NCBI GenBank assembly: GCA_013329055.1
Contig: DUKY01000011.1
Coordinates: forward strand, 16,096 to 80,095
Direction of reading: 5' to 3'
Source of the DNA: Nanobdellota archaeon
GTDB lineage: Archaea > Nanobdellota > Nanobdellia > Pacearchaeales > GW2011-AR1
DNA: 64,000 bases
Position numbers and translations under genes: made by a program. Of the stretch, positions 4,972 to 48,545 are shown in pieces. A model generated the notes under the pieces. That model saw nothing but the letters and a program-made list of their open reading frames with translations. It did no database searches and was not told the origin of the DNA. Each line of letters starts with the position of its first letter. Positions within the stretch are counted from its first letter, which is position 1.

Positions 4972-4974
4972 GTT

Positions 4975-6387: not shown

Positions 6388-6390
6388 TTT

Positions 6391-7076: not shown

Positions 7077-8235
7077 CCCTAAATGCTTTTTGCATTAGCG
7101 AATCAAATAATTCTTCGGAGCTTTGTTTAGTTTTCTTTTGCTTTTCTTTCATCTTTTCAACTTTCTCGACGATGTTTGCGAATTTTTGTTGGAGGGGAAG
7201 TGGCGGGAGGGGGATTTTAAAATTATCAACAAAATATTTTGGCAATCTTCTAAGCCCCCCAGTTCCAGTTAATTGTTTTTCGCCTAATTTAATAAAAGTT
7301 TCACTGGAAATAACATAGTAAACAAGTTCTGGCAAAATATTTTTTGTTGGACGTAATACGTGATATTCGCTTGAGCCAAACCCAATTCTATTTTTTAAGT
7401 TCTTACATATTCCAGATTTACCATTTTCAAAGCAAGGAGTTACCTTAGCCAATAAAATATCTCCTTCCATAAAGTAAGTATATCCCTTATACACTTCCTT
7501 TATCCTTCGTATTTCTTTGGGTTTAAAATGAATACTGTGTTCTGAAATATCCGCCATTGGAACAAAAGAAACTTCTAAATTATTATCTTCTTTCCCAATT
7601 TCAGATTTTTTAGGATTGATTTCACAAATATCCCCTAGCTTAACTTTTTCAAAATCTTTCTTCAAAAACATCTCATTAAAAATAGCCTTAAGATATTCAT
7701 CAAGTAATTCACTGGCTTTCTTACTTTTTTCTTTCTGCTTTTCTGCTTTTTCTAAAATTGCGACGATTTGTTTTTGTGTTTCGAGGTCTGGTTTTCCTTC
7801 GGGGTTTTCAAGGGTCGGGGGGAGATAAGGGAGGAGGATTTTTTTCTCTTTAAGAAATTTATAATGTCTGCTATATCCTGCCGAAGAAATCTTTAATTTT
7901 TTTAGGGCGTAATAAAAATATTTTTGGGAAATATTTTCTTTTGGAACTAATATTTTAACTCCATCTGCACCAAGAGCAAATGGGAAATTAATAAATTTTA
8001 AAATTCTTGTATGGTCTCCAAAGATAATCACAGGTAATTTTTCATCATAAACTTTTGATTTGTCATTAGTATATCCTGCAATAAATTCTTCTCCTTGATC
8101 AATTATGGGATATTTGCCCTTTTTCAAAAAATCCTTTCCTTGAATTTTAAGATTATTGCTTGAAGCTTCTTTTTCAAGACAATCTAAGAAATTGATGTCT
8201 CTCCATTCAATTTTATTGGTTTGTTGGATTTTCAT
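7066..8235 (-). CDS. hsdS: type I restriction-modification specificity subunit
   Basis: Two target-recognition halves separated by conserved helical spacers (LPPLPLQQKFANIVEKVEKMKEKQKK; EKQKEKSKKASELLDEYLKAIFNEMF). Size and context match HsdS. Confidence 0.85.
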   Translation of the reverse strand: MKIQQTNKIEWRDINFLDCLEKEASSNNLKIQGKDFLKKGKYPIIDQGEEFIAGYTNDKSKVYDEKLPVIIFGDHTRILKFINFPFALGADGVKILVPKENISQKYFYYALKKLKISSAGYSRHYKFLKEKKILLPYLPPTLENPEGKPDLETQKQIVAILEKAEKQKEKSKKASELLDEYLKAIFNEMFLKKDFEKVKLGDICEINPKKSEIGKEDNNLEVSFVPMADISEHSIHFKPKEIRRIKEVYKGYTYFMEGDILLAKVTPCFENGKSGICKNLKNRIGFGSSEYHVLRPTKNILPELVYYVISSETFIKLGEKQLTGTGGLRRLPKYFVDNFKIPLPPLPLQQKFANIVEKVEKMKEKQKKTKQSSEELFDSLMQKAFRGEL

Positions 8236-8701
8236 TTTTTGATAGATGCTTCTTAAATTTTTTTAATTCACTTATAGTCCTTTTAGAAATATAAGGAGTA
8301 AAATTAATTTTCAGATGACCTTGACTAAATTTAGCCCTTAGGGTTACTCCATTATTATGCCCTCCAATCTCAAGATATTTCTTTTTTGTGATTTTGTAAT
8401 AATTTTTAAAATTATTATCTATGAAATAAGATACTAAAACGATTTCAGGGTCTATATCCTTCATGGTATCTTCATTTAGATCAAGCATCTTTGGGTGAGG
8501 GGACCACCATGCCATTTCCAAACCTAATAATTTTACTATAAATTTATTATATAAAAAATAAACTCCGATAAATACAATAAATATTATAATAATGATAAAT
8601 CCCTTTGGCAAAAGAGTTATCATTAAAGCAAATAATATACCAATAAGAAAGAAAAAGAATCCCATAATAGCCGATTTTTGAATACTGTTTAATTTTTTCA
8701 T
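8213..8701 (-). CDS. hypothetical two-TM membrane protein
   Basis: 162-aa ORF with two N-terminal hydrophobic helices. 23-nt overlap with the hsdS start. Confidence 0.4.
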   Translation of the reverse strand: MKKLNSIQKSAIMGFFFFLIGILFALMITLLPKGFIIIIIFIVFIGVYFLYNKFIVKLLGLEMAWWSPHPKMLDLNEDTMKDIDPEIVLVSYFIDNNFKNYYKITKKKYLEIGGHNNGVTLRAKFSQGHLKINFTPYISKRTISELKKFKKHLSKNENPTNQ

Positions 8702-8847
8702 TTTCTTTTTTTAGCATAAAAACTTACTTTTACTTTTTGAGTTTTTCGAACTTTAAAACAAACTTTTCTTCCATCTTTTGTTTTAAAACAAATATTTTTC
8801 TTTATTGGTTTTTTAGCCATAAAACTAACTCTTTTTCTTTGTGCCAT
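8698..8847 (-). CDS. possible 49-aa very basic peptide (below the ORF-track cut-off)
   Basis: Hand translation: MAQRKRVSFMAKKPIKKNICFKTKDGRKVCFKVRKTQKVKVSFYAKKRK. Its ATG abuts the TAA of the upstream ORF, and its TGA overlaps the ATG of the downstream ORF (ATGA). Confidence 0.3.
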   Translation of the reverse strand: MAQRKRVSFMAKKPIKKNICFKTKDGRKVCFKVRKTQKVKVSFYAKKRK

Positions 8848-9390
8848 TTATATCAACCTCTCAATAATTTTAATTGTGATATTCAAAATCATAACAGCAT
8901 CCAATTCACTAACTTCTTTTAAAATTTCATGAACAGAATTATTTCTTTGACTTCTTAGTCCATGAAGGAAATGATAATCTGATTCTTCAATAAGATTTGT
9001 TTTTTTTGCTTCTTCAATTAAGTTGTAAAAATTCTTTTTATTTACTTTTTCTTTTGTTAAAGCTTCAGCAAATAAGTTAGCTAGACTATTCTCAAATCTT
9101 TCTTTTAATATATTTTCTATTAAAGCAGATGCAACAACCACAGAACTTCTAAATAATCCGTAAGAATAGGCCCTATATGATTCAACAAACGCAGAATAAT
9201 ATTCTGGTTTTTTTCCTAATTTAGAAATAAAATCCTGTGTTAAAGGAACTCTCTGAGCTTTGCTATTAATCTGCGACTGAAATGCTTTATAATTTTCTAA
9301 TGCTTGTTTATCCGCAGGATTTGGTGCAGAAATTGCTGCTCCGACAAATCCTCCAAGAATCATTGCTAAAAGTTTATCATTTTGTGTCAT
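8848..9390 (-). CDS. hypothetical protein with C-terminal Rx4H motif (HEPN/DUF4145-like)
   Basis: 180-aa ORF. The C-terminal LHGLRSQRNNSVHE contains R-NNSV-H. The N-terminus is hydrophobic and Gly-rich. Confidence 0.35.
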   Translation of the reverse strand: MTQNDKLLAMILGGFVGAAISAPNPADKQALENYKAFQSQINSKAQRVPLTQDFISKLGKKPEYYSAFVESYRAYSYGLFRSSVVVASALIENILKERFENSLANLFAEALTKEKVNKKNFYNLIEEAKKTNLIEESDYHFLHGLRSQRNNSVHEILKEVSELDAVMILNITIKIIERLI

Positions 9391-9394
9391 TTTT

Positions 9395-11566
9395 TTAAAA
9401 TATAATCTCCTTTAATTTTTTAATCTCTTCTACAGTAGGCTGATTGACTGCATAGGGGTTTAATATAATATCCCCGACTAAGATAAATTTAACCTTGCCA
9501 TCTAAATTTACTAATTGTTTTTTGAAATAAATTAATCCACTAACAATTTGTTTATCTTTGGCAATTGCATCATCTTTTCTTATTAGTTCGGGCTTTGTTG
9601 TTTCTCCAGTTTCATTATTCCTATAAAATTGGTAAGTCAATGTTCCAAAAAAACTATTTGCTATCATGTATTCATCTATAACCGAAGAACTTGCATCAAC
9701 GACAATAAAATACAAATCATTTCTAATACCCTTTTTCATTTCTTCAAAAGATTCCAGAGAATAAAATTGACTTGATTTTTCTTTGAGAATTTTATCAACC
9801 TTATTATTTATCGTAACTGCACCGTTATCTAAATGTAAACTTCTATCTCCTTTAGAGTTTTTAATCTCAAAAAAAACATTCTTATTATTTAATTTAATAT
9901 ATAAATCTGCATTATTGTTTTTATTCGGAATCTTTGGTTCAAGAATTGAATTTAAGTTCTCTTCCAAAAAAATAAATTTGTTTGTAAAGATAATCTCGCT
10001 AAAATCATCCCAAAACTTATCTTCATTTTCAAGACCCCTAATTAATGACGTGCGATTATCTTTATTCCGTTCATTAGAAATATTTTTTGAGTAACTAAGA
10101 AAATTCTCTATTTCATTCAAATATGCCTTTTTTAGTTCTTTATCTCTTTGTTGGCTACCTAACCAAAATAAAGGACTATATCTTTTTTTGTTATATAACT
10201 CTTTTAATTTATGTTTAATTATCTTGTCTAATTCGGAAAATTCTTTTAAAGATTCATCAATTTCATTAAATTCAAAATCAATAATTCTAAATCTTAATTG
10301 TTCCAATAATCCATTAATATAATTAATTAGTTCATCAAAATTATTTTTGTTAACCAATTCATCAAATGTTTTTTTATTTTCATTAATAAAATCTTTATTC
10401 TCGGATATTTCTTCTATCTTTTTAGCTAAGGGGAAAAATAAATTAAACGCCTTCTTTTTATCCTGGTCTTTGTAGATTATTCCAATAATTTTACTAACAA
10501 GTTCATAATAGAGTTTAGGATCCTTGTCAAAAATCTTTTTTTCCATCAATTCTCTTGAAGCAAATTCAACATTTTGAGAAGCCATTTTTTCAAAAATCCT
10601 TGGAAAGATATACTTATAATCTAACTTCTCAGTTTTTACTTTTTCAAAATTATCTAAAAAATAATCTATAAACTTCTCATTCTTTTTTACCAACTCTTGA
10701 ATAGCCCAATCAAAATGCTGAACTTTGAATTCTAAATCTTTATTTATCCAATAGATAAATAGCTTAGATATTTTTTCAATTTCGTCAGGGTAATCTATCA
10801 ACGGATACATCATATCGTTGATAATGGTTTCTTCTGAATTCTTATATAATTCTATTAATTCCAAAATGTGTTCTTTATCTAATTTAATTCCAATTGTTTT
10901 CCAAAATAGTAATCTATTCACTGAAATAATTTTTCTTTCGGCAAGTGATTTTATTTTCTCATAAAAATAACTTTTCTCGTTTTTATAGAATGACAAATAA
11001 AGATTCATAAGTTCGGTTAATATCCTCTCATCATGAGATAACATTGTCTTATTAAGACACTCTTTAACTTCAGTAGGTAAAATTTCTTTTTCATATTTTA
11101 CCAAAATTGCTTTAAGAATAGTATTTTTCGTTGGATATTCCAAATTTCTTTTAATTAAATCCTTTAATAATCCTTCATTGTAAAATGAATATCCCCCAAG
11201 TATTAACCCAGAGATTATTTTAAGATCTATATTATTAGATTTATTTTGGATTATATAATATAATTTTATTGCTACTTCTTGCTTTTCTTTTCCAACTTTT
11301 ATTAACATCTCAAAAAAAGGTCCACTTGCCATATCTCCTTTTACTTTTAAAAAGACACTATCTAAATATTCCAGATATTTTTCACTATCAGAAGCTAAAT
11401 CAAATAAGATTTCTATAGATAATTGAAAATAATTCCAAATAGACTCTTTATTTATTTCATCTAATAAGACATATTTGTTTTCTTCAGTTATATCTCCCTT
11501 TATCTTAGAATATTCTTCTTTTTGTTTATCAAATTCAAATCTAAATTGTTTAAATTTTTCAATCAT
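9395..11566 (-). CDS. large helical protein with C-terminal PD-(D/E)xK-like nuclease motif
   Basis: 723-aa ORF. About 500 aa are Lys/Glu/Leu-rich and predicted helical. The C-terminus has FSEII...ADLYIKLNNKNVFFEIKNSKG (E ... D ... ExK spacing). Confidence 0.35.
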   Translation of the reverse strand: MIEKFKQFRFEFDKQKEEYSKIKGDITEENKYVLLDEINKESIWNYFQLSIEILFDLASDSEKYLEYLDSVFLKVKGDMASGPFFEMLIKVGKEKQEVAIKLYYIIQNKSNNIDLKIISGLILGGYSFYNEGLLKDLIKRNLEYPTKNTILKAILVKYEKEILPTEVKECLNKTMLSHDERILTELMNLYLSFYKNEKSYFYEKIKSLAERKIISVNRLLFWKTIGIKLDKEHILELIELYKNSEETIINDMMYPLIDYPDEIEKISKLFIYWINKDLEFKVQHFDWAIQELVKKNEKFIDYFLDNFEKVKTEKLDYKYIFPRIFEKMASQNVEFASRELMEKKIFDKDPKLYYELVSKIIGIIYKDQDKKKAFNLFFPLAKKIEEISENKDFINENKKTFDELVNKNNFDELINYINGLLEQLRFRIIDFEFNEIDESLKEFSELDKIIKHKLKELYNKKRYSPLFWLGSQQRDKELKKAYLNEIENFLSYSKNISNERNKDNRTSLIRGLENEDKFWDDFSEIIFTNKFIFLEENLNSILEPKIPNKNNNADLYIKLNNKNVFFEIKNSKGDRSLHLDNGAVTINNKVDKILKEKSSQFYSLESFEEMKKGIRNDLYFIVVDASSSVIDEYMIANSFFGTLTYQFYRNNETGETTKPELIRKDDAIAKDKQIVSGLIYFKKQLVNLDGKVKFILVGDIILNPYAVNQPTVEEIKKLKEIIF

Positions 11567-12227
11567 CTTTTTTTACCTCATAATTATCTGATTTGTGTAT
11601 ATCAAATTTATCTGAATATATTCTATTTTTTAATTTTATTTTGAATTTTCTTATCTTTCCCTCTTCTATACAGAAAATTTCTACCGGGAATAAAGCAGGA
11701 TGTCCCGTCATTGCATCATGTTTTCCTAAAAAATCAAAACATTCAAAAAAATTTTCAAAAATTTCTTTTTCATAATCTGTCACCAAAAATAGTTTCTCTT
11801 GACATTGTCCAATAAATTCAGAATTTGGGGAGCCAATCATTGCAAAATTAACCTCTTCATTATGTTGTTCCTTAAGATTTACAAATTTTTTATAAGTTAA
11901 ATTGGTAATATCTATCACGAGAATTCCAGACCCCATATTCAAATATTTAATATGTTGCTCCGTCTCTATAGATGGTGCATAATTCTCATTACTCATTGCA
12001 TTTTCAATCCTTGCTTTAAAATCTTCAAGATTAATACAGCTAATGGATTGATTATACACATGATTGATTATTAAATCACTCCCCGATCCAGCAAATAAAA
12101 ATTTCCCAGCAATTAAGGGAAATATCTTTGTTTTTGAATAAGTAGATACATCATAAGCATGTTGAGTATCTCCTGCCAAGAACAATCTTTCTCCATTTTT
12201 TGTTTTAAACAATATTATTGAAGTCAT
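11559..12227 (-). CDS. proteasome-beta/HslV-like Ntn hydrolase (Thr1 after Met)
   Basis: MTSIILFKTKNGERLFLAGDTQ...KTKIFPL...FAGSGSD aligns by eye with the genuine PsmB in this window (TTILGIVCKNGIVMAGDNR...EKVYQI...FSGCGSATEA). Thr1, the Asp of AGD, the Lys and the GSG block are all present. Confidence 0.55.
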   Translation of the reverse strand: MTSIILFKTKNGERLFLAGDTQHAYDVSTYSKTKIFPLIAGKFLFAGSGSDLIINHVYNQSISCINLEDFKARIENAMSNENYAPSIETEQHIKYLNMGSGILVIDITNLTYKKFVNLKEQHNEEVNFAMIGSPNSEFIGQCQEKLFLVTDYEKEIFENFFECFDFLGKHDAMTGHPALFPVEIFCIEEGKIRKFKIKLKNRIYSDKFDIHKSDNYEVKKDD

Positions 12228-12358
12228 CCCCTTCCACCCCCAATCAAAAACTTCTTATCATAAGAAAGTTCCTCTTTATCTAACAGCTTTTCAACTATCT
12301 CTTTGTAAGTCTTAACTTTCTTTTTCAATGTAATCATAGCCCAATCATCTCCAAACAT
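12224..12358 (-). CDS. possible 44-aa ORF (below the ORF-track cut-off)
   Basis: Hand translation: MFGDDWAMITLKKKVKTYKEIVEKLLDKEELSYDKKFLIGGGRG. Its TGA overlaps the ATG of the Ntn-hydrolase ORF. Confidence 0.2.
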   Translation of the reverse strand: MFGDDWAMITLKKKVKTYKEIVEKLLDKEELSYDKKFLIGGGRG

Positions 12359-12527
12359 ATAACTTTTCTCCATTAAATCCGAAGACCAAAACATTTTTAT
12401 ATTCCATATTCCTGTATTTTATTGTAAGCGGACCGGTTCCGTAAAAGGTTTGATTATTCAAACTGACCAACGCTTTATGCGTGTGATTGGTTGGGAAGAC
12501 CGCTAATCGCTTACATTTTATTTTCAT
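12345..12527 (-). CDS. doubtful 60-aa ORF overlapping a GC-rich structured patch
   Basis: Listed in the ORF track, with no motif. It overlaps both neighbouring ORFs and may be spurious or a frameshifted fragment. Confidence 0.2.
   Translation of the reverse strand: MKIKCKRLAVFPTNHTHKALVSLNNQTFYGTGPLTIKYRNMEYKNVLVFGFNGEKLYVWR
12424..12514. other. GC-enriched 91-nt element closed by a 7-bp stem
   Basis: GTAAGCG (12424-12430) pairs with CGCTTAC (12508-12514). Internal hairpins are TTTGA-TTAT-TCAAA and CCAACGC-TTTAT-GCG..TTGG. By hand count about 46% G+C in a much more AT-rich context. Confidence 0.3.
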
Positions 12528-13023
12528 TTAATTCCTCCCAATAATTTTTAATTGAACTAAATGGAACATCAACAATATTTAACTTCTTTCCTCTAATCTG
12601 CCTATTTGTCTTTAATGCTCTTCTTCGGTATATTCTCGCATAATTATCCGCTAAAGAACCAATATTTCTTCCAAGTCTTTTCCTGAACTCAGAGATATTA
12701 ATAATTTCAAAAGAATAATTTTTTAACAAATAATCCAAAATATTTTTAACAACTTGAAAATCTTCATCATTACAAATTATCAAGGTTTTAAGATCTTTTT
12801 CAACATTTTTAACCAAAAGATAAATACAAATGGCATATAATTTTGCAGAATCCTCATAAATATTTTTTTTAAATAATCTTCTCTTAATTAACTCTAGTAA
12901 ATTTCCCTTCAAAGCACATCCATAATTAACTTTTGTTTTTGAGCCTACAAGAGCAATACCTATAGTTTTCTTCCAATAGATTCTTCCACTCATATCAACA
13001 TGAAAATCATCTTTTTCTATCAT
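12511..13023 (-). CDS. hypothetical protein
   Basis: 170-aa ORF with no recognisable motif. Its start overlaps the stop of the RHH-like ORF (ATGA). Confidence 0.45.
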   Translation of the reverse strand: MIEKDDFHVDMSGRIYWKKTIGIALVGSKTKVNYGCALKGNLLELIKRRLFKKNIYEDSAKLYAICIYLLVKNVEKDLKTLIICNDEDFQVVKNILDYLLKNYSFEIINISEFRKRLGRNIGSLADNYARIYRRRALKTNRQIRGKKLNIVDVPFSSIKNYWEELNENKM

Positions 13024-13193
13024 TCCTCCTCCCCCAATCCAGTTTCTTTTCTTATCATCTCTCTAAGTTTTGTATTTACAGTTTTGCCTTCCTGATCACA
13101 AAGTTTTTTGAAAAAAAGAAATTCACTTTTATACAATCTTGTAGAAACAATTTTCCTCTCTTCACCGCTTAAATCATGATTTTTTAAAACCAT
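13020..13193 (-). CDS. 57-aa ribbon-helix-helix (CopG-like) protein (below the ORF-track cut-off)
   Basis: Hand translation: MVLKNHDLSGEERKIVSTRLYKSEFLFFKKLCDQEGKTVNTKLREMIRKETGLGEEE. The pattern is a beta-strand (KIVSTRL) followed by two helices, as in RHH regulators or antitoxins. Confidence 0.45.
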   Translation of the reverse strand: MVLKNHDLSGEERKIVSTRLYKSEFLFFKKLCDQEGKTVNTKLREMIRKETGLGEEE

Positions 13194-13253
13194 AGAAAAA
13201 ATAAAAATAAGAACTATTTAAATATTTAGGTAGTTACCTGTATACACCTTTTT

Positions 13254-13279
13254 GTTCATAAATTGTATAATTTATGAAC
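13254..13279. promoter_or_regulatory. perfect 11-bp inverted repeat upstream of the RHH ORF (candidate operator)
   Basis: GTTCATAAATT-GTAT-AATTTATGAAC, about 60 nt upstream of the RHH start. An AT-rich TATA-like TTTAAATATTT lies at 13217-13227. Confidence 0.35.
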
Positions 13280-13394
13280 TATTTCCACTTTTCCATTTTT
13301 CCACAAGTATTATATACCATAACCATCTATATATTTTATCTGGGTAAGTCCTAGGGAGGTTTGTGTACCGGAATGGTGCACCTTGTCTTAATCT

Positions 13395-14033
13395 CTAGGG
13401 TCCGGATAACTTTTCAAACACTTCTTTCTTTATTACTATTTTATCCTTTATTGTGTTCATAAAATTGGAATCTTTGAATTCATAATTTCTAAAAATTGCC
13501 CATGAAATAAAATCTAAAACCTGCAAACAACCTTCTTTCTGAGAATCCTCGTGTCTTATGTCTATTTTACAATTAGAATTATTCTGAACTAAGCTAGATC
13601 TAATATAATTATCAAAATCCTCCCTCAAGGAACGATTGGTCTTGGACTTATCAACAATTAAACAAACATGATTATTATCCAAAGAGCATTCGTTTAAAAT
13701 AAGATTTGAAATGTAATTGTACAACTTATCTTTTTTGTTTTTTAGATATTCATAAACTTTGGATTTTTCAAGAATTATAACAAATACTTCTGAGTTTGTT
13801 TCCACAAATCTTTTTAAGATCTCTGCTCTTATTTTGTCTGTACTGTTATTTCCCTTTAGTTCAGGATACTTTTTCATTTTCTTTTTGATTATTTTTTGTC
13901 TGACTTTTTTCATTATTCTTCTTAAAGAATAAACTTCTTCCTCATCACAAGATAATAGAGCTATAACAAAATATTTGCTTGAAGTTGATTTAAATCCAAG
14001 TTCTCCACTCTCATCAAGAAAGATATATTTCAT
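13395..14033 (-). CDS. DUF3800-family protein
   Basis: N-terminal YIFLDESGELGF is characteristic of DUF3800. The ORF starts 1 nt after the hsdR stop. Confidence 0.65.
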   Translation of the reverse strand: MKYIFLDESGELGFKSTSSKYFVIALLSCDEEEVYSLRRIMKKVRQKIIKKKMKKYPELKGNNSTDKIRAEILKRFVETNSEVFVIILEKSKVYEYLKNKKDKLYNYISNLILNECSLDNNHVCLIVDKSKTNRSLREDFDNYIRSSLVQNNSNCKIDIRHEDSQKEGCLQVLDFISWAIFRNYEFKDSNFMNTIKDKIVIKKEVFEKLSGP

Positions 14034-14034
14034 C

Positions 14035-16782
14035 TTATTTCCACTTCAATTCATTGCATTTTTGAACAATTGTCTCCAATTGTTCCTTACTAAAAGCATC
14101 TAAAGGTCTTCCTTCTGCCAAAGGATGTTCTGCAAAATTCTTTAATTCAATATGTTTCGCCCGAACAAAAACCTGCTCTAACATCCTTAAAAATTTCAAT
14201 TGTTGAGAATTATAATGTTCATTTTTATCCATAACAAATTTATCAAATTCCCATTTAATCATTTCTTGGGGATCAGGTAATCCCTTTATTTCTAATAATC
14301 CTCTCAAGAATAAAATAAAATCTTGACTCTGTTGAATGTTATCAATAGTCCATCTAGGATTTAAGCCTCTTAAATTTTTTTCAATTTCCAATAGTTCTTT
14401 AGATGTGACTCCATCTCCATTTTTAATTTTTTCTAATAGCTTATTACTGTTAACAAAATAAGAATAGTTTTCACCTTCTTTAACTTTCATTATTTCTTTT
14501 TTAACATCAATAACTATATCTGGAGCATTGATTTTTAACATATTTTTTCTTTCTTGTTCGTAGAATATCATTAAAGGAGAAATTTCTCTAACTAAGAAAT
14601 CAACATCTTCAAAAGTTATTTCTTCCCAAAATTGCTCTTTTTGGATTCTTACTAAATCATTCCTTTTCTGTTTTACAGCATCTAAGTTCTTATCCCAAAT
14701 AGAATCTACCCTTTCTACAACAAACTCTTCAATCTTAGCAATTTTATTTTTATTTCCGGTTTTTATGCAATCAAAAAGTTTAACGCACTGAGAAATGAAA
14801 CCATAAACTTTTGCATTTTCAGAAGGAGTATAAATCAAAAGAGGAGCTATTTCATTTCTTAATTCCTCAACATGTTCTCGCAAATCAAATTTAGAAGAAA
14901 CAACTTTTGTTATAATATTTTTCTTCTCAATAACCAATGGAGATTCAACATCAATTTCTTTAATTGTATCACGAATTTGTTTTTCAACAATTTTTCTCTC
15001 CTTCTCATCTAAATTTTTCTCCAAAGCATCAACTTGTTCTAAAAATATTCTTGTTTTAGCGTCAGTTCCAGAAGATTTTTGTTTAAAAATGTTTAATTTA
15101 TGTTGCATCACATTAGACCAATCTCCAAATTTAAAATCCAATATCAAAAAATCTTCTTTTATGTGTTGTCCATCTTTATTTGTTGGCAACCATTCTTTAT
15201 TTTCACAGGCAGATAAACTCCTTGTTCCTCTTCCTAACATCTGCCAAAATCTAATTGAAGACATTACGGGTTTAACAAAAACTAAATTCATTACTTCAGG
15301 AACATCAACCCCAGTATCTAAAACTCCAACAGATAAAGCAATTCTTGGGCTATCTCTTTTCTCAAATCTTTTAACCTCATCCATGTAACGAGATTTATCA
15401 GAAGTAATAACTTTTACATCCTTTGCTAAAGAGGGGTAAAGTTTTTGAAATAATTTTTCTAAAGATTCCGCATGTTTTACACTTGCACAGAAGAAAATAC
15501 TTTTACATGGCCTATTATCATCTGATTTATAACACCTATCAACAAATTCTCTAATGATTAATTCGTTAGTTTTTTCATCTGTAAAAAATCTTTCAAATTT
15601 AGAACCTGGTGTTTGAAATTTCTCTGGGTCTTCCTCTTGTTGCTTTAATGCTTGTTGTAATTCTTTATTCAATTTTTTTCCTTCAATTCCTAATGAAAGA
15701 ACACTTGTTTCAATAATTTCTGCTACATAAGGAGCTAAAATTTTGTCTCTTACTGCAGAATCATAATCATATCTAAAGGTAGGTTTTCCATTATCACAAT
15801 TAAAGAGATCAAAAGTATTTCTTGTTTCTTCTGAAGAAGGAGTGGCAGTTAATCCAACTTTTAAAGCATCAAAATATTTGAAGATATCATTATTTTTATC
15901 ATAGTAAGAACGGTGTGCTTCATCAAAAATAATTAAGTCAAATGCTCCAGGACCAAATTTTTCATAAAATTTCCCTCTTGGTTTTTGAGGAGACATTAAA
16001 GTTTGAATTGTAGAAACATAAAATCTTGCACTACTTGAATATCCTTCTTCATTCAACTCACAAACTGGAGATTCAGGAAAAAATTTCTTAAATCCTTTTT
16101 CTTTTGCCTGATTTCCTAGAGAAATTCTATCAACAACAAATAGGACTTTTTGTACATATTCTGCTTTTATTAAACAATCTATTAAAGCCATTGCTACTCT
16201 TGTTTTTCCAGTTCCAGTAGCCATATTAATAAGAGCCTCTCTATGTCCATCAGAGAAATGTTCTAATACTGTTTTAACTGCCTCAACACACATCTTTCTG
16301 TTTAAAATAGTAGAACTCACCTTAACATTTGCTGGGTCTTTTCTTTGTTTCATTAAGCTAATTATTCTATGCAAATCTTGTTGAGAAAAAGGCAAGAGAA
16401 TTTTTCTTCTTCTATCTAAGTCATCAACATAATACCAATTTGTTCCGTTAGTTAAGAATATAGGGATTTTAATTTTAATTTGTTTTTCAATATCATCTCT
16501 ATAAGTTCGTGCTTGAATTTCCCCTTTTTCAATGTCAATAGAAGTTTTTTTTGCTTCTACAATTGCAAGGGGACTTCTATCTTCATCTAATAATAGATAA
16601 TCAATAAAATGATCCACTCCTTTTTCTATTCCAGCTTCACGACCAATATATTCTTTAGTTTTAAATTTGGATTTAACTGGATTAATTTCTTCTTTGACAT
16701 AATGTCCTTTAACTTTCCATCCTGTCCTTTCTAAAATTGGATCTATCAAGTTTTTTCTTGTTTGTTCCTCAGTAAGCCCCAT
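14035..16782 (-). CDS. hsdR: type I restriction enzyme R subunit (nuclease-helicase)
   Basis: N-terminal PD-(D/E)xK (DYLLLDED...AIVEAKK), Walker A MATGTGKT, DEAH box IFDEAHRS, helicase motif VI QMLGRGTR, and a long C-terminal helical domain as in EcoEI-type HsdR. Confidence 0.85.
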   Translation of the reverse strand: MGLTEEQTRKNLIDPILERTGWKVKGHYVKEEINPVKSKFKTKEYIGREAGIEKGVDHFIDYLLLDEDRSPLAIVEAKKTSIDIEKGEIQARTYRDDIEKQIKIKIPIFLTNGTNWYYVDDLDRRRKILLPFSQQDLHRIISLMKQRKDPANVKVSSTILNRKMCVEAVKTVLEHFSDGHREALINMATGTGKTRVAMALIDCLIKAEYVQKVLFVVDRISLGNQAKEKGFKKFFPESPVCELNEEGYSSSARFYVSTIQTLMSPQKPRGKFYEKFGPGAFDLIIFDEAHRSYYDKNNDIFKYFDALKVGLTATPSSEETRNTFDLFNCDNGKPTFRYDYDSAVRDKILAPYVAEIIETSVLSLGIEGKKLNKELQQALKQQEEDPEKFQTPGSKFERFFTDEKTNELIIREFVDRCYKSDDNRPCKSIFFCASVKHAESLEKLFQKLYPSLAKDVKVITSDKSRYMDEVKRFEKRDSPRIALSVGVLDTGVDVPEVMNLVFVKPVMSSIRFWQMLGRGTRSLSACENKEWLPTNKDGQHIKEDFLILDFKFGDWSNVMQHKLNIFKQKSSGTDAKTRIFLEQVDALEKNLDEKERKIVEKQIRDTIKEIDVESPLVIEKKNIITKVVSSKFDLREHVEELRNEIAPLLIYTPSENAKVYGFISQCVKLFDCIKTGNKNKIAKIEEFVVERVDSIWDKNLDAVKQKRNDLVRIQKEQFWEEITFEDVDFLVREISPLMIFYEQERKNMLKINAPDIVIDVKKEIMKVKEGENYSYFVNSNKLLEKIKNGDGVTSKELLEIEKNLRGLNPRWTIDNIQQSQDFILFLRGLLEIKGLPDPQEMIKWEFDKFVMDKNEHYNSQQLKFLRMLEQVFVRAKHIELKNFAEHPLAEGRPLDAFSKEQLETIVQKCNELKWK

Positions 16783-16907
16783 GTTAAACTAATGAAACAC
16801 TACCTTAAAAAGTTATTCTCAAATAAACTTTATTGTTGATATAAATCCCTGTGAGATGGACTTCATGTCCATTCGAGTTTGTAAAAAAAATAAGAAAATT
16901 TGAAAAT

Positions 16908-17270
16908 TTATCCTGCCATAGGACAATTACCTTGGTGCATTCCTCTTCCCATACCTTTTTTGTTATTTTCCGGGAATCCATTTTGTTTCATTTCGTTATG
17001 TTTTTCCTGAATTGCCTGAAAATTTTCTTCTGTAAGACTATCTTGCATTTTAGCAATTTGTTCTTCCATTAATGCTTTCCATGTTGCAAAATCTCCTTCT
17101 TCTATAGCTGTTCTTATTGCATCCCTATTAGCTTTCATGTCGGCTTTTTCTTCTTCAGAAAGGTTTTGATTCATAAATCCCATTCCAAAACCATTAGCTG
17201 AAATCAAACTTACACCTAGTAATGCAATTATCGCTAAAGCTATTGAACCTAATACTAATTTATTTGCCAT
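16908..17270 (-). CDS. small secreted helical protein
   Basis: 120-aa ORF with an N-terminal signal-like helix, a charged helical body and a C-terminal GMGRGMHQGNCPMAG. Confidence 0.4.
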   Translation of the reverse strand: MANKLVLGSIALAIIALLGVSLISANGFGMGFMNQNLSEEEKADMKANRDAIRTAIEEGDFATWKALMEEQIAKMQDSLTEENFQAIQEKHNEMKQNGFPENNKKGMGRGMHQGNCPMAG

Positions 17271-17385
17271 TTATTTTTTATAACCTCCTTTCATTTTTTT
17301 CATAATAATTAATGCAAAAAATCTTTTTTAAAGAAGGTGGACTGATAATCCATTCCTTTTATAAATCTAAAAATTCTTTACTTTT

Positions 17386-18120
17386 ATGCCAATTAATCAT
17401 ATTACTGGAAATGCTATAATGGGCAAGCAAATGATTTCTCAGTTTGCATCTTGTGGTTTTATGCTTGAAATTTTATATTCTTTTGTAATTATTGTTTGCA
17501 GTTTAATGATTTATTTTGGTACAAAAGAATTATACGAATTAAGTTCTCATAAAGGAATTAAATATTTTAGATTATCTTTTCTTTTTTTTGCTATTGCTTA
17601 TTTTTTCAGGTCTTTTATTAAATTTGTAGTTATTTATTTTAATATTGAATCAATTTTTAATTTTTCTCCTAAGACTTTTGGAATTTTATTTGGTTCTGCT
17701 ACAATGTTTGTTTTTATGTATTTTAGTGCTATGGCAATTTTTTATCTTCTTTATAGTGTAATGTGGAAAAAATTAGAAAAATCACCGAATAAAATTTATT
17801 TGTTTCATTTTTTTGCTTTTATTATTTCTTTGATTACTATAATTTTTATGAATCCGTTTGTTTATCTGTGGATGAATTTATTGTTGCTTTCTTGTGTTAT
17901 TTTTATTTATTATCTTTCAAGAAAACAATCAAAAGTTAAAAAGTCTAAACATAATCTTCACATAATTTATACTTTGCTTTTTTCATTTTGGGTTTTGAAT
18001 ATTATTGATATTTTAATTCCTACTTTTTTCAAGACTTTTCAGTTATTCATTTATCTTGCTTCTATTTTCTTATTTTTATTAATGCTTTACAAAGTTATTA
18101 AGAAAACAGGTGCAAATTAA
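17386..18120 (+). CDS. polytopic membrane protein
   Basis: 244-aa ORF with about 7 hydrophobic segments. The start codon is uncertain. Confidence 0.5.
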   Translation: MPINHITGNAIMGKQMISQFASCGFMLEILYSFVIIVCSLMIYFGTKELYELSSHKGIKYFRLSFLFFAIAYFFRSFIKFVVIYFNIESIFNFSPKTFGILFGSATMFVFMYFSAMAIFYLLYSVMWKKLEKSPNKIYLFHFFAFIISLITIIFMNPFVYLWMNLLLLSCVIFIYYLSRKQSKVKKSKHNLHIIYTLLFSFWVLNIIDILIPTFFKTFQLFIYLASIFLFLLMLYKVIKKTGAN

Positions 18121-18394
18121 AATGGTTGTTAAAAGAAATAAATTAGAAATTATTAAGGATATTTTGAATTTGATTAATAAAAATCATAATTTGATAAAAT
18201 ATACTCCTTTACTCCGGCAGTCAAATATTTCTTCTTCTCGTTTTAAAGAATATTACATTGAGCTTTTGAAAAAAGATTTTGTTAAAGAGGTTCATCAAAA
18301 AAGAGAGAAATTTGTTTCTTTAACTGAAAAAGGGTTTAAGTTTTTAGAAAAATACGAAGTTATTGTTAATTTTATTGAAGAGTTTGAACTTTGA
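18110..18394 (+). CDS. small winged-helix DNA-binding protein
   Basis: 94 aa. The pattern RNKLEIIKDIL...YTPLLRQSNISSSRFKEYYIELLKKDFV...LTEKGFKFL resembles archaeal HTH_45/COG3432-type regulators. Confidence 0.5.
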   Translation: MQIKMVVKRNKLEIIKDILNLINKNHNLIKYTPLLRQSNISSSRFKEYYIELLKKDFVKEVHQKREKFVSLTEKGFKFLEKYEVIVNFIEEFEL

Positions 18395-18436
18395 AGTCAT
18401 CAAAACACTTATAATTCCATTTGATTATTAATTATA

Positions 18437-19933
18437 ATGAATAAAACATTTAAGGAACTTGGATTGTCTCCTCAATTTATTGAAATTTTAGAAAAGAATA
18501 AAATTATTGTTCCTACTGAGATTCAAGAGAAAGCAATTCCTTTAGCTATGAAGAGAATTGATATTATCGGAGTCTCTTCTACAGGGAGTGGTAAAACATT
18601 GGTTTTTGTTGCCCCGATTATCGAACAAGCTAAGGCTGGTGAAGGTATTATTGCGTTAATTTTAGTTCCGACCCGTGAATTGGCTGAACAAGTAGCGACG
18701 GAATTTCGTAAATTTTCGAATAAAAAGAATTTCCAGATTGGAAATTCTTTTGTATTCCCTACTTCTACGCAGCAAAGCTGCGAAAAGAAACAATCAGTAG
18801 GGAATAAAAAACTGAAAATATTTTCTGTATATGGCGGGGTTAGTATTGAAGAACATGTTAAAAAAATTGTAAATGCTGATGTTGTTGTTGCGACTCCCGG
18901 AAGATTATTAGATTTGATGAATCGTAATGCTGTTGATTTAACAAAAATTGAAACTTTAGTTATTGATGAATTTGATCGTATGCTTGATATGGGTTTTGTT
19001 CCGGATGTGGATTTAATTGTTAAAAAATGTCCAACTAAAAGACATACCATGCTTTTTTCTGCTACGGACTCAAAAAAAATTAGTTCTATTGTTCAGGAAT
19101 ATGTTATGAACCCAAAAAGAATATTTGCTCAGGCTCATGTTGAAGCATCAAAACTTGAACAAAGTTATTATTATACAAAAAATGATTCAAAACTTTCGCT
19201 TTTAGTTTATCTATTAAATGATAAAAAGCCGGAAAGTTCTATTATATTTTGCTCTACTCGTACTGATACTGATTTTGTAGGAAAGGGTTTAGAGTCGCTG
19301 GGTTTTAATGTTAAGATTCTTCATGGCGGGCTTGATCAGAAAAAAAGAACCAGAATTTTAAAAGAGTTTCATAAAAATGCCGGTATTTTAGTTTGCACTG
19401 ATGTTGCTTCTCGTGGTCTTGATATTAAAAATGTTAATTATATTTTTAATTATGATATTCCTCGAACAAGAGAGGGTTATATTCATCGTATTGGACGAAC
19501 AGCCAGGGCTGGAAAAGGCGGTCATGCTATAAGTATTATTTCCACTAAAGATATGCCGTTATTTCGTCAAATTTTAGAAATTAAAGAATTTGAAATTGAA
19601 GAGAAGGAACTTCCTTTTCTTGAGAAAATTATTGATTTTAGTGATTTTGAAAATCCTGAAAAAAAGAAAAAAAAGAGTCGTGGTGCTGGTCGGAAAAAAA
19701 TTAAGGAAAGGAGAAGAAAAAAAGGTTTAAGATGGGTTTCTATTGATGATCCTAATTTGAGTAATCGTGAAAGAAAAAGAAGTGTTAATCATTTTGAAAA
19801 TGATGAGCCTGAATTTACGAAAAGGAAATATAAAAAAATTAAACGTAAATTTGGTAGTTATGGTGGAAAGCGTGGATTTAAGAAAAAATCTAATAGACCG
19901 AAGGGGCGAGCCAATAGAAAGACGAGGAAATAA
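18437..19933 (+). CDS. DEAD-box RNA helicase with basic C-terminal tail
   Basis: Q-motif region, SSTGSGKT (I), PTRELA (Ia), TPGR, VIDEFDRM (II, DEFD variant), SAT (III), HRIGRTARAG (VI), and a Lys/Arg-rich tail. Confidence 0.9.
   Translation: MNKTFKELGLSPQFIEILEKNKIIVPTEIQEKAIPLAMKRIDIIGVSSTGSGKTLVFVAPIIEQAKAGEGIIALILVPTRELAEQVATEFRKFSNKKNFQIGNSFVFPTSTQQSCEKKQSVGNKKLKIFSVYGGVSIEEHVKKIVNADVVVATPGRLLDLMNRNAVDLTKIETLVIDEFDRMLDMGFVPDVDLIVKKCPTKRHTMLFSATDSKKISSIVQEYVMNPKRIFAQAHVEASKLEQSYYYTKNDSKLSLLVYLLNDKKPESSIIFCSTRTDTDFVGKGLESLGFNVKILHGGLDQKKRTRILKEFHKNAGILVCTDVASRGLDIKNVNYIFNYDIPRTREGYIHRIGRTARAGKGGHAISIISTKDMPLFRQILEIKEFEIEEKELPFLEKIIDFSDFENPEKKKKKSRGAGRKKIKERRRKKGLRWVSIDDPNLSNRERKRSVNHFENDEPEFTKRKYKKIKRKFGSYGGKRGFKKKSNRPKGRANRKTRK
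18727..18810 (+). other. 84-nt hairpin-rich in-frame insertion flanked by 9-nt direct repeats
   Basis: GAATAAAAA occurs at 18718-18726 and 18802-18810. Perfect hairpins: 18727-18735/18739-18747 (9 bp), 18753-18763/18796-18806 (11 bp), 18768-18773/18777-18782 (6 bp). Confidence 0.6.
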
Positions 19934-26107: not shown

Positions 26108-27385
26108 ATGTGGGGTGAAATATATAAAAAAGGTCTTTCAACAGTTATCATAACTATTCTCCTGATTGGATTTGCGTTAGTAGCGATTGGAATTGTATGG
26201 ACGATTATTTTTAATATTGTCAATGAAGAATCTGAAAGAATAGGTGCTAATCAGTTATCTTTAGATTTAAATTTTGGTAAAATTGATGTTGAATTTCCTA
26301 ATAGTTTGAATGTTTCTGTAAAAAGGGACGTTGGTGAAGGTAAAATAGATGGCATTAAAATTGTTGCTGATGATGGCAAAACTTCAGAGATATTTTCATT
26401 TAATGAATCAATAGATGAATTAGAAACAAAAGTTTTCACTTTAAATTTTGTTGATTTATCTATTTTAAATGCTGAGAAACTTACTCTTTCTCCATACTTT
26501 TTAACAATTACCGGTAAAGAAGAAATTTTAGGTGTTGCAGATGTTAGAAATTTAGATTTATTTAATATTGGCTCTTTTAAAACCGGACAATTTATTACTA
26601 ATGGTGATGCAGAAATGGGTGATACTACTAATTGGGTGAATATTGACGGTATTGATTCAGAATTTTATTCCGGCAGTTATTCCTTTGTTGATGCTGGTGG
26701 AGGAACTATTTATTCAAAAGAATTAATACCTGTAGATAAAAATTATCTTTATCATTTAGAAGGAATGTTTAAATCAGATGGTATTGATCAAAGTCGTCTT
26801 TATTATGGATTTCTTCCTTATGATGAAAATTTAAAATTTATACCTCCTCAATCAGTTGATGCAATTCTAAATACTGAAACAACTCTTTATGAAGAGGTTC
26901 ATTCAACAGATACTTCTATAAAATTAACCAGTTGCAATAATTGGATAATTTTATGGTATGCAGTTGTTGCTTTTGATATAGATGATTCCGGAAATTATAA
27001 TGACCTTCCAAATTATAAAACAAGTGATTACAATATCAGTAAAATCACAAATTACCCTAATTATTGTGAAATTGAAATTGGAACTGGATATGGAGTTCAG
27101 CATTATGCAAAATTTAATGCTCCTGCAGGAACAAAAGTTAGACAACATCAATCCGGAGGAACTTATATGTACACTGCGGCTAGTAATTCATTGGTTCCAT
27201 TTTCCTGGACAAATTATCAAGGTGATGTTACTGGCATGTTTAACGAGGGTACATCTAGTACTAAATGGAGAAAAAACTCTACTTATGCCGTTGTTTTAAT
27301 CTTGCCTAATTATAATCAAACTTATGCTGGTTCACCTCTTCAACCAAGATTATTATTTGATGATTTAAAATTAACTATCAGTTAA
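26108..27385 (+). CDS. secreted protein with archaeal class III (pilin-like) signal peptide
   Basis: KGLSTVIITILLIGFALVAIGIVWTIIFNIV N-terminus. The following domain (VKRDVGEGKIDGIKIVADDGKTS) is shared with ORF 51775-52221. Confidence 0.55.
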   Translation: MWGEIYKKGLSTVIITILLIGFALVAIGIVWTIIFNIVNEESERIGANQLSLDLNFGKIDVEFPNSLNVSVKRDVGEGKIDGIKIVADDGKTSEIFSFNESIDELETKVFTLNFVDLSILNAEKLTLSPYFLTITGKEEILGVADVRNLDLFNIGSFKTGQFITNGDAEMGDTTNWVNIDGIDSEFYSGSYSFVDAGGGTIYSKELIPVDKNYLYHLEGMFKSDGIDQSRLYYGFLPYDENLKFIPPQSVDAILNTETTLYEEVHSTDTSIKLTSCNNWIILWYAVVAFDIDDSGNYNDLPNYKTSDYNISKITNYPNYCEIEIGTGYGVQHYAKFNAPAGTKVRQHQSGGTYMYTAASNSLVPFSWTNYQGDVTGMFNEGTSSTKWRKNSTYAVVLILPNYNQTYAGSPLQPRLLFDDLKLTIS

Positions 27386-48539: not shown

Positions 48540-48545
48540 TTTTAA

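What the first reader, a model, noticed from the sequence alone, without database searches (positions are those of the whole stretch)
18718..18811. 84-nt hairpin-packed, in-frame insertion with 9-nt direct repeats inside a DEAD-box helicase gene
Between motif Ia and the conserved YGG segment, the helicase carries 28 extra residues (NFQIGNSFVFPTSTQQSCEKKQSVGNKK).

At the DNA level the extra segment is bounded by the perfect direct repeat GAATAAAAA (18718-18726 and 18802-18810, spacing 84 nt). It contains three perfect hairpins:
- 9 bp at 18727-18747
- 11 bp at 18753-18763/18796-18806
- a 6-bp hairpin nested inside the 11-bp one, at 18768-18782

Deleting one repeat plus the insert restores ...FRKFSNKKLKIFSVYGG, which matches the usual short linker of archaeal DEAD-box proteins.

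This looks like one of two things:
- a miniature transposable-element insertion with a target-site duplication, tolerated because it is in frame and free of stops
- an RNA-level intervening sequence in a protein-coding gene, which is rare in archaea
Basis: seen in the sequence. Interest (0 to 1): 0.65.

Follow-up and report, generated by a model that had tools for sequence, protein, structure and literature searches.

The report
Recent hairpin-rich insertion in archaeal helicase gene
One strain lineage of a tiny groundwater archaeon carries a recent 84-base, hairpin-forming DNA insertion with a 9-base target duplication in a surface loop of an otherwise ordinary DEAD-box RNA helicase; it is real and apparently tolerated, but it is a one-off with no detectable relatives, not an intron and not a demonstrable transposon family.

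Summary
The 9-nt repeat GAATAAAAA flanks 75 extra bases. The stems are longer than reported, and the segment is the most stable 94-nt fold in the 64-kb window.

Sister strains from the same aquifer population are about 95% identical in protein. They have an uninterrupted site with one copy of the 9-mer, so this is a recent DNA-level insertion with target duplication. In 106 of 107 homologues the loop is 6-7 residues; only here is it 34. AlphaFold places the extra 28 residues in a disordered surface loop.

The intron reading fails: none of the ten equivalent 84-nt excisions has a bulge-helix-bulge motif, and the insert is in frame and stop-free.

The transposon reading is only partly supported. 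There is a duplication, but no terminal inverted repeats, and no second copy in the window, sister contigs, species-representative genomes, JGI metagenomes, viral contigs, phages or plasmids.

The insert contains an inverted copy of its own target. It also sits in the loop of a pre-existing quasi-palindrome, where another strain carries the densest substitution cluster of the whole gene.

I favour a one-off, structure-driven break or template-switch insertion (about 0.5) over an orphan hairpin mobile element (about 0.3). Interest is modest.

The parts
18437..19933 (+). DEAD-box RNA helicase gene (498 aa, = P0001; Nanoarchaeota/DPANN MAGs including archaeon GW2011_AR13)
   Evidence: ORF; Pfam DEAD, Helicase_C; PDB sequence matches 1hv8 and 5ivl; the AF2 model superposes on RNA-bound DbpA and eIF4A; source names
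18718..18726 (.). Left copy of the duplicated 9-nt target GAATAAAAA (D1)
   Evidence: Exact repeat; empty alleles L006-L009 have a single copy
18727..18801 (+). 75 nt of inserted sequence with no detectable source. GC is 38.7% against 31.8% for the gene. With D2 it encodes NFQIGNSFVFPTSTQQSCEKKQSVGNKK.
   Evidence: Absent from sister alleles; no similarity to the flanks, the window or sister loci; GC
18802..18810 (.). Right copy of the duplicated target (D2)
18723..18751 (.). Hairpin 1: 13-bp perfect stem with a GAT loop. It can extend to 18718-18757 (18 bp, G18752 bulged), pairing all of D1. On the minus strand it looks like a terminator (stem + UUUUUAU).
18748..18811 (.). Hairpin 2: 16-bp stem with one mismatch that pairs D2, enclosing the nested 6-bp hairpin 18768-18782
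18748..18757 (.). Internal inverted copy of the target (TTTTGTATTC = reverse complement of GAATAAAAAA with one mismatch). It is shared by both long stems, so it can pair with either D1 or D2.
   Evidence: chance 0.012 (shuffled insert) to 0.048 (natural 75-mers)
18712..18819 (.). Pre-existing inverted repeat in the flanks (ATTTTC 18712-17 / GAAAAT 18814-19; 9-10 bp quasi-palindrome AAATTTTC..GAAGATTT in the sister alleles). Its loop is the insertion target.
   Evidence: The same loop in L010 carries the densest substitution cluster of the gene (7 of 12 nt, corrected P about 5e-4).

Best explanation
Shown: this is a recent, strain-specific DNA insertion into the chromosome. It consists of 75 bp of foreign or novel two-hairpin sequence plus a duplication of the 9-bp target.

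Inferred from frame, openness and the structure model: the insert is translated as a 28-residue disordered excursion of a surface loop. That loop joins the helix after motif Ia to the strand before the GG doublet. It lies on the face of the RecA-like domain away from the ATP and RNA sites, so the helicase still works. The allele persists and recombines among co-existing strains.

Inferred mechanism: the event was a one-off, not the jump of a repeat family. The target is the single-stranded loop of a small quasi-palindrome, a fragile spot. A break or stalled fork there was repaired by template switching or fold-back synthesis. That process copied the target once inverted and once direct, and joined in a short hairpin-forming stretch of unknown template. 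Only an in-frame, stop-free product in a tolerant loop could survive selection.
For: Filled and empty sites:
- The empty site has one GAATAAAAA; the filled site has two, flanking 75 nt.
- All outgroups lack the insert, so it is a gain.
- The insert is identical in many independent assemblies (47 collection blocks; ENA, JGI, Logan, NCBI), so it is not an artefact.

Tolerance:
- The AF2 core has pLDDT >90. Residues 95-127 are coil with pLDDT ~45, between H80-94 and E128-131.
- The core superposes on RNA-bound DEAD-box structures at 2.4-2.6 A (DbpA) and about 3 A (eIF4A).
- In frame and open has a chance of only 0.04-0.09.
- The insert is identical in L038, a mosaic allele lying between sister-type flanking genes, so it spreads by recombination.

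One-off, structure-driven origin:
- There are no terminal inverted repeats.
- No second copy was found anywhere searched.
- There is an internal inverted copy of the target (p 0.01-0.05).
- Both long stems use the duplicated target.
- The target is the loop of a 9-10-bp quasi-palindrome. L010 has a 7-of-12-nt substitution cluster at exactly that spot (corrected P about 5e-4), including a paired G>A / C>T change that keeps the stem.
- Fold-back and templated inverted insertions at breaks are an established class (PMC11724301; PMC5728401 and PMC2943611 abstracts).
Against: - About 44 of the 84 nt have no local template. The insert shows no similarity to +/-150 nt of flank, the window or sister loci.
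- A formal parse of the insert as copies of upstream sequence is not significant in this AT-rich genome: 32 of 500 natural windows do as well.
- A perfect 9-bp duplication is the classic footprint of a DDE transposase cut.
- Fold-back insertions described so far are mostly 5-34 bp and come from eukaryotes.
- No repair pathway was examined in this organism.
- The internal inverted target copy is only moderately improbable by chance.
Confidence: 0.5

Rival explanations
1. An orphan copy of a small hairpin-type mobile element, comparable to Rickettsia palindromic elements, MITEs or IS200/IS605-derived palindromic elements. It was inserted by a transposase acting in trans, which made a 9-bp staggered cut, and it survived because it is in frame in a tolerant loop.
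For: - Clean filled/empty site with a perfect 9-bp duplication.
- Extreme palindromic structure.
- GC is higher than the host gene, 38.7% against 31.8%.
- It is in frame and open in two of six frames, as for RPEs and the archaeal palindromic coding repeats (PMC10969869; PMC2229807 citing Suyama 2005).
- Two independent stem-loops without terminal inverted repeats are known for CIR elements (PMC2229807).
- IS200/IS605 is the most widespread IS family in archaea (PMC13343696).
- The searches needed exact 20-23-mers, and one excluded copies followed by A, so diverged copies could have been missed.
Against: - No terminal inverted repeats for any choice of boundaries.
- No second copy in the 64-kb window (<=3 mismatches) or in about 20 kb of sister strain.
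- None in 185,579 species-representative genomes; the arm pattern gave only chance bacterial hits.
- None in JGI metagenomes that contain this organism's genome, IMG/VR, phages or plasmids.
- No cluster representative among 1.84 billion proteins carries the peptide.
- No transposase, integrase or TnpB among the window ORFs scanned (the >=100-aa ORFs of the 3.5-14 kb island and ten of the larger ORFs beyond 20 kb).
- IS200/IS605-type elements make no duplication, and their hairpins sit 10-19 nt from the ends, not at the junction (own knowledge of IS608).
Confidence: 0.3
2. An RNA-level intervening sequence: an archaeal bulge-helix-bulge intron removed from the mRNA, which restores the ancestral helicase.
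For: - Precise excision anywhere within the 9-nt repeat would restore FSNKKLKIF.
- The segment is highly structured.
- Protein-gene BHB introns exist in some archaea (Cbf5; own knowledge).
Against: - None of the ten equivalent 84-nt excisions has a BHB; the central helix is <=2/4 pairs.
- The only canonical in-frame motif (18748/18832) would delete the conserved strand and YGG.
- The minimum-energy fold is two independent hairpins with no pairing between the junctions.
- In frame and stop-free would be an unexplained coincidence (0.04-0.09).
Confidence: 0.02
3. A translational bypass ('hop') element. Ribosomes take off at AAT AAA (N95-K96) and land at the identical AAT AAA (N123-K124), skipping the hairpins, as in T4 gene 60 or the mitochondrial 'byp' inserts.
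For: - Identical take-off and landing codons lie in the same frame, because 84 is a multiple of 3.
- A very stable hairpin starts inside the take-off codons.
Against: - There is no stop or rare codon after the take-off site to stall the ribosome.
- The segment is open and in frame, so bypass is unnecessary.
- No precedent in archaea is known to me.
- It is a single copy.
Confidence: 0.02
4. A selected functional addition: a new protein loop (for example an interaction surface) or an mRNA or DNA structure with a regulatory role. This is not exclusive of the origin hypotheses.
For: - The insert is invariant across all ten cluster variants and in a recombinant background.
- The allele is widespread (47 collection blocks).
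- The central segment can pair with either neighbour, giving alternative hairpins, and there is a weak shape match to a leader/attenuator model (Phe_leader 38.5 bits).
Against: - Invariance is expected for a very young insertion.
- The Phe_leader match is below the gathering score (55) and is carried only by the terminator-like hairpin.
- The L037 variant breaks a stem pair without compensation.
- The peptide is predicted to be disordered.
- 106 of 107 homologues manage with a 6-7-residue loop.
Confidence: 0.1
5. An assembly or sequencing artefact.
For: Palindromes can cause chimeric joins.
Against: Identical sequence was recovered by different assemblers and projects: NCBI GW2011_AR13 and TPA MAGs, JGI, ENA and Logan.
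Confidence: 0.01

Closest known systems
Rickettsia palindromic elements (RPEs) and the palindromic coding repeats of Methanocaldococcus jannaschii (Suyama et al. 2005, as cited in PMC2229807; RPEs in PMC10969869)
   Same: Short palindromic DNA inserted in frame into conserved housekeeping genes. It is translated as an extra surface segment compatible with fold and function.
   Different: Those are multicopy families (tens of copies) with conserved sequence and peptide, and RPEs have ~12-bp terminal inverted repeats. This insert is a single copy with no relatives and no terminal inverted repeats. It is shorter (75+9 nt against ~100-150) and has a clear 9-bp duplication.
Prokaryotic MITEs (for example Correia, ERIC, RUP; archaeal SM-type MITEs)
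   Same: Small size, no coding capacity for a transposase, strong stem-loop potential, target-site duplication, occasional in-frame fusion to genes.
   Different: Two defining features fail here: terminal inverted repeats and multiple copies. No partner IS was found.
CIR elements of Caulobacter and IS200/IS605-derived palindromic elements
   Same: No terminal inverted repeats. Two independently folding stem-loops, one towards each end. In IS200/IS605, a short internal guide base-pairs with the target or cleavage site, as the internal TTTTGTATTC could with GAATAAAAA.
   Different: IS200/IS605 elements insert next to a 4-5-nt target without duplication, and their hairpins are set back from the ends. 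Here a 9-nt repeat abuts the hairpins directly. No TnpA or TnpB gene and no further copies were found.
Fold-back / templated insertions at repaired breaks (SD-MMEJ snap-back synthesis; foldback inversions, PMC11724301) and quasi-palindrome template-switch mutagenesis
   Same: A one-off event that leaves inverted and direct copies of the sequence next to the junction, gives perfect new hairpins, and occurs at structure-forming sites. A neighbouring strain shows a clustered multi-base change at the same hairpin loop.
   Different: Described events are mostly shorter (5-34 bp) and largely templated locally. Here more than half of the insert has no identifiable template. The pathway is undocumented in DPANN archaea.
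Archaeal bulge-helix-bulge introns in protein genes (Cbf5)
   Same: A short structured intervening segment in an archaeal protein-coding gene.
   Different: There is no BHB at any junction that would restore the reading, and the segment is in frame and open.

Membership tests
DEAD-box RNA helicase (host gene) | DEAD and Helicase_C domains with motifs Q, I, Ia, GG, Ib, II (DEFD here), III (SAT), VI | tested here: met
   Pfam 1.5e-43 and 4.5e-30; 1hv8 1e-72; fold match to DbpA and eIF4A
MITE | Terminal inverted repeats | tested here: not met
   All start/end combinations around the insert were tested. The best is 10/15 at positions that are not the junctions. The two stems are internal and side by side.
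MITE | Target-site duplication | tested here: met
   9-bp GAATAAAAA, single in the empty alleles L006-L009
MITE | Multiple copies in the genome or in related genomes | tested here: not met
   No copy in the window, sister loci, GTDB representatives, JGI metagenomes, IMG/VR, phages or plasmids. Limits: collection scans need exact 20-23-mers, one scan excluded copies followed by A, and the complete source genome was not available.
MITE | Related autonomous IS or transposase in the genome | tested here: inconclusive
   None among the 20 ORFs of the 64-kb window that were scanned with Pfam. The other ORFs and the rest of the genome were not examined.
RPE-like palindromic coding element | In-frame insertion of a palindromic segment in a conserved gene at a structurally tolerant site | tested here: met
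RPE-like palindromic coding element | Repeat family sharing a conserved sequence or peptide inserted in many unrelated genes | tested here: not met
   Exhaustive phmmer against 1.84e9 representatives gave only a repeat-driven false positive. DNA scans were negative. Two indexed protein searches were uninformative because their positive control failed.
Archaeal BHB intron | Bulge-helix-bulge (3-4-3) motif placing both splice sites in the bulges | tested here: not met
   For the ten equivalent 84-nt excisions the central helix has <=2/4 pairs
Archaeal BHB intron | Absence of the segment from mature RNA | not testable with these tools
   No transcript data available
IS200/IS605-derived palindromic element | No terminal inverted repeats; a subterminal hairpin at each end | tested here: met
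IS200/IS605-derived palindromic element | Insertion 3' of a 4-5-nt target without duplication; hairpins set back from the cleavage sites | tested here: not met
   A 9-nt direct repeat abuts both hairpins. The criterion comes from my own knowledge of IS608/ISDra2.
Fold-back / templated repair insertion | Inverted and/or direct copies of junction-adjacent sequence inside the insert | tested here: met
   TTTTGTATTC is the inverted target with one mismatch, and D2 is a direct copy; chance 0.012-0.048
Fold-back / templated repair insertion | Most of the insert traceable to local or identifiable templates | tested here: not met
   No similarity to the flanks, window or sister loci; the parse statistic is not significant
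Translational bypass element (gene 60 / byp) | Matched take-off and landing codons with a hairpin at take-off | tested here: met
   AAT AAA on both sides in frame; hairpin 1 starts at 18723
Translational bypass element (gene 60 / byp) | Stop or hungry codon after take-off; gap not translatable | tested here: not met
   The segment is open and in frame

The most novel reading that the evidence does not exclude
The segment could be the first seen copy of a structure-guided single-strand DNA element. In this reading it carries an internal 10-nt guide (TTTTGTATTC) complementary to its target. It inserts into the exposed loop of chromosomal hairpins and leaves the target on both sides. That would be a targeting logic related to, but distinct from, IS200/IS605, in a DPANN archaeon. 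A variant of this reading is that the element is skipped by ribosomal hopping between the identical AAT AAA codons.
Probability: 0.06. Interest if true: 0.75.

Novelty: new variant of a known kind. Interest (0 to 1): 0.35.

Why it matters
It is an unusually clean natural experiment. Two co-existing, recombining alleles of an essential-type helicase in an uncultivated DPANN archaeon differ by an 84-bp hairpin cassette. The empty site, the filled site and a third mutated version of the same hairpin loop are all available.

It shows how conserved proteins can acquire new surface segments in one step. It also points to a small quasi-palindrome as a mutational hotspot.

If more such inserts were found, it would define either a new hairpin-type mobile element in archaea or a repair signature not yet described in them. 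As a single event with no relatives, its general importance is limited.

Tried and rejected
**Rejected explanations**
- Tandem duplication or local templating: the insert scores at the shuffle mean against +/-150 nt of flank on both strands. blastn-short against the masked window and sister loci gave only 9-13-nt AT-rich matches.
- Membership of the ~84-90-nt dispersed repeat family found at 39.2-39.7 kb, at 48.47-48.55 kb and in L010: the length and the 'short + long hairpin' look are the same. But nhmmer finds no hit at 18.7 kb, and pairwise scores are at null apart from one z = 3.0 among 12 comparisons.
- Known RNA family: nothing at gathering threshold. The sub-threshold Phe_leader match is shape only.
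- 'Flank copied back and forth' as a formal statistic: not significant, so it is not used as evidence.
- CRISPR-repeat-like reading of CGCAGCAAAGCTGCGAAAAGAAAC: no array with this 23-mer in JGI metagenomes or IMG/VR.
- Integron attC: no GTTRRRY / RYYYAAC cores in the sequence (by inspection).
- Intein: far too short and lacks the terminal residues (own knowledge).
- Retro-insertion: there is no 3' A-tail distinct from the target A-run.

**Searches that gave no usable answer**
- Two indexed protein searches (six-frame composite; 41-aa peptide) returned nothing. They also failed to propose P0001, which contains the query and scores E = 1.8e-5 locally. They are uninformative, not negative.
- The single exhaustive-search hit, P0130, is a 24-fold PAN-repeat protein whose score is the sum of weak matches.
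- The genome-collection hits, including a recurrent 58-59-nt inverted-repeat element in Bacteroidales MAGs, share only the 10-nt arms I specified.
- The six metagenome hits to hairpin 1 are unrelated loci that share only the 21-nt palindrome.

**Design flaw to note**
The metagenome scan for the Y core required a non-A base 24 nt downstream in order to skip the helicase locus. A donor whose stem continues with A would have been skipped too.
Full report
**1. What is there**

The window is AT-rich (28.3% GC). Its genes are archaeal: FttA/aCPSF1, FKBP26 and a presenilin-type peptidase.

The ORF 18437-19933 (+) encodes a 498-aa DEAD-box helicase (Pfam DEAD 1.5e-43, Helicase_C 4.5e-30). The identical protein (P0001) is recorded from Nanoarchaeota MAGs, and a near-identical cluster member (P0121) from 'archaeon GW2011_AR13'. 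It occurs in 47 blocks of the public assembly collection.

The stems are longer than reported:
- Hairpin 1 is 13 bp perfect.
- Hairpin 2 is 16 bp with one mismatch.
- Hairpin 1 can alternatively extend through the whole left repeat as an 18-bp stem with G18752 bulged.

The 101-nt region folds at -37.7 kcal/mol (z = -8.5; minus strand z = -7.1). It is the single most stable 94-nt window of 6,391 in the 64 kb.

**2. It is a recent DNA insertion with a target duplication**

- PDB alignments to MJ0669 and CshA break across residues ~98-121.
- Among 107 homologues down to ~45% identity, the loop between the motif-Ia helix and the strand before YGG is 6-7 residues in 106 and 34 residues only here.
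- The closest relatives (466 aa, about 95% identical outside the insert) read FRKFSNKKLKIFSAYGG.
- Their DNA (L006-L009) reads AAATTTTC GAATAAAAA ACTGAAG, with one copy of the 9-mer. The window has the 9-mer on both sides of 75 extra bases.
- All outgroups lack the segment, so it is a gain.

The two forms belong to one recombining population:
- L008 is 99.2% identical to the window just upstream yet has the insert-less gene.
- L038 is a mosaic gene that carries the insert, base for base identical, between sister-type flanking genes.
- All ten variants in the 90% cluster carry the insert. One variant (L037) has a T>A at 18749 that breaks a stem pair without compensation.
- In about 20 kb of aligned sister sequence, the other indels within the aligned blocks are only 5-15-nt slippage events. 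Larger gene-sized differences lie between the blocks.

**3. Consequence for the protein**

- The AlphaFold model (107-sequence alignment) has a confident core. It places residues 95-127 as coil with pLDDT ~45, between helix 80-94 and strand 128-131.
- The core superposes on RNA-bound DbpA at 2.4-2.6 A and on eIF4A at about 3 A.
- In a RecA-like domain, helix-to-strand connections lie on the face opposite the nucleotide and RNA sites. This is established fold knowledge, and an inference here. A disordered polar excursion there should be tolerated.
- A random insert of this composition is a multiple of three and stop-free in this frame only 4-9% of the time. That fits translation as the selective filter.

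**4. Not an intron**

- I scored every pair of positions around the insert for a 3-4-3 bulge-helix-bulge. The ten equivalent excisions that restore the ancestral sequence have at most 2 of 4 central pairs.
- The only canonical in-frame motif would delete the conserved strand and YGG.
- The minimum-energy fold has no pairing between the junctions.

**5. Is it a transposable element?**

The duplication says 'staggered cut', but the other hallmarks fail.

- No choice of boundaries gives terminal inverted repeats. The insert is two hairpins side by side.
- No other copy was found:
  - in the window, allowing up to 3 mismatches;
  - by blastn-short in the masked window and sister loci;
  - in IMG/VR;
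  - in 185,579 species-representative genomes, where 16 bacterial hits shared only the specified arms;
  - in JGI metagenomes that contain this organism: the Y core gave none, and the X hairpin gave six unrelated loci;
  - in phages or plasmids.
- An exhaustive phmmer of the translated insert against 1.84 billion cluster representatives gave one hit, a PAN-repeat protein whose score sums weak repeats.
- Two indexed protein searches failed their positive control and are uninformative.
- The strain-specific 13.4-kb island nearby is a type I restriction-modification and defence island without a transposase. The other larger ORFs scanned are housekeeping.
- Limits: collection scans need exact 20-23-mers, one scan excluded candidates followed by A, and the complete genome was not available.

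**6. Clues to the mechanism**

- The insert reads D - X - d' - Y - D. X and Y are self-complementary. d' (TTTTGTATTC) is the inverted target with one mismatch, so d' can pair with either copy of D.
- The chance of such an inverted target copy is 0.012 (shuffled insert) to 0.048 (natural 75-mers).
- The target lies in the loop of a quasi-palindrome: ATTTTC/GAAAAT here, and 9-10 bp in the sister alleles.
- In L010, the closest insert-less allele, the densest cluster of differences in the whole gene (7 of 12 nt) falls exactly on this loop (corrected P about 5e-4). It includes a paired G>A / C>T change that preserves the stem, and a rare CGG codon.
- So one hairpin loop suffered two independent complex mutations in sister lineages.
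- A more ambitious statistic, parsing the insert as copies of upstream sequence, is not significant in this low-complexity genome. More than half of the insert has no identifiable template.
- On the minus strand the insert resembles 'long hairpin + terminator hairpin + U-run'. That explains a sub-threshold Phe_leader match (38.5 bits against a gathering score of 55). This is shape, not homology.

**7. Verdict**

Near-certain: this is a real, young, strain-polymorphic 84-bp insertion (75 bp plus a 9-bp duplication) in a tolerant surface loop, very probably translated.

For its origin I favour a one-off, structure-driven break or template-switch event at a hairpin-loop hotspot (about 0.5). The main rival is an orphan copy of a hairpin-type mobile element without terminal inverted repeats (about 0.3). 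Splicing or ribosomal hopping are each about 0.02.

The closest known phenomena are:
- the in-frame palindromic inserts of Rickettsia and Methanocaldococcus (PMC10969869, PMC2229807), from which it differs by being single-copy and lacking terminal repeats;
- fold-back and templated insertions at breaks (PMC11724301), from which it differs by size and by its mostly untemplated content.

Noticed in passing
window 39222-39705; window 48469-48547 (minus strand); L010 3280-3459: A dispersed family of structured ~84-90-nt units. There are four tandem units upstream of the minus-strand HMA/DsbD gene (37773-39185). One unit lies between a TATA-like box and the ATG of the presenilin-type peptidase gene (48546) and ends in a stem + UUUU. 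Copies also sit right after the helicase gene in strain L010. nhmmer E-values are 1e-9 to 1e-22, with no Rfam match. It looks like an undescribed 5'-leader or regulatory RNA motif, or possibly a small repeat element.
   Followed up: partly
window 39565-39667: The fourth unit of that array is split by a ~100-nt block of consecutive perfect hairpins (10, 8, 9 and 6-7 bp). The block repeats the flank motif CTTCA/TGAAG in alternating orientation, and the whole region folds at -56.9 kcal/mol. This is a second 'hairpin-packed' block in the same window. It is identical in all strains retrieved, so no empty site is available.
   Followed up: partly
L010 2146-2160 (= window 18716-18726/18811-18816 equivalent): The closest insert-less allele has TCAAATCGGATGTTG where the others have TCGAATAAAAAACTG. 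That is 7 changes in 12 nt, the densest cluster in the gene, exactly at the insertion point. It includes a rare CGG codon and a compensatory stem change.
   Followed up: yes
window 3477-16855: A 13.4-kb island absent from the sister contigs L002, L006 and L008. It holds type I restriction-modification genes (HsdM 3523-4971, HsdS 7066-8235, HsdR 14035-16782), a Schlafen/AlbA_2-HATPase protein (4975-6387), DUF4145, DUF3800 and several proteins with no family (for example 723 aa at 9395-11566).
   Followed up: partly
window 16855-19933 versus L008, L038, P0124, P0128: Helicase alleles are mosaics of the two strain types. L008 has a 99.2% identical upstream region with a sister-type gene. L038 has a window-type middle between sister-type ends and flanks. 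Both indicate frequent homologous recombination within this DPANN population.
   Followed up: partly
window 49558-49890: Three copies, about 151-152 nt apart, of a repeat that contains the palindrome CACCAAAATTTTTTATAA/TTATAAAAATTTTTAGTG, just downstream of the peptidase gene.
   Followed up: no
window 26108-27385: A 425-aa ORF with no Pfam match that is absent from the sister strain L006, giving a gene-content difference next to the tRNA-modification-type gene.
   Followed up: no
L012, L016, L017, L018, L019, L022, L024 (Bacteroidales MAGs): A recurrent 58-59-nt element bounded by ATTCCCTACTA ... TAGTAGGGAAT in several gut Bacteroidales/Rikenellaceae genomes. It was picked up only because it shares the 10-nt arms, and it is unrelated to the insert.
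   Followed up: no
P0010 (source 'src'): A protein-level assembly reads FSNKKNFQIVNSDVVVATPG. It joins the first four insert residues to residues ~145 onward, and is most likely a chimeric protein assembly through the similar strings QIGNSFVF and KIVNADVV.
   Followed up: no
window 18523-19050 (minus strand): A 175-aa antisense ORF stays open through the insert, because the palindromes give similar codons on both strands. It is probably spurious.
   Followed up: no
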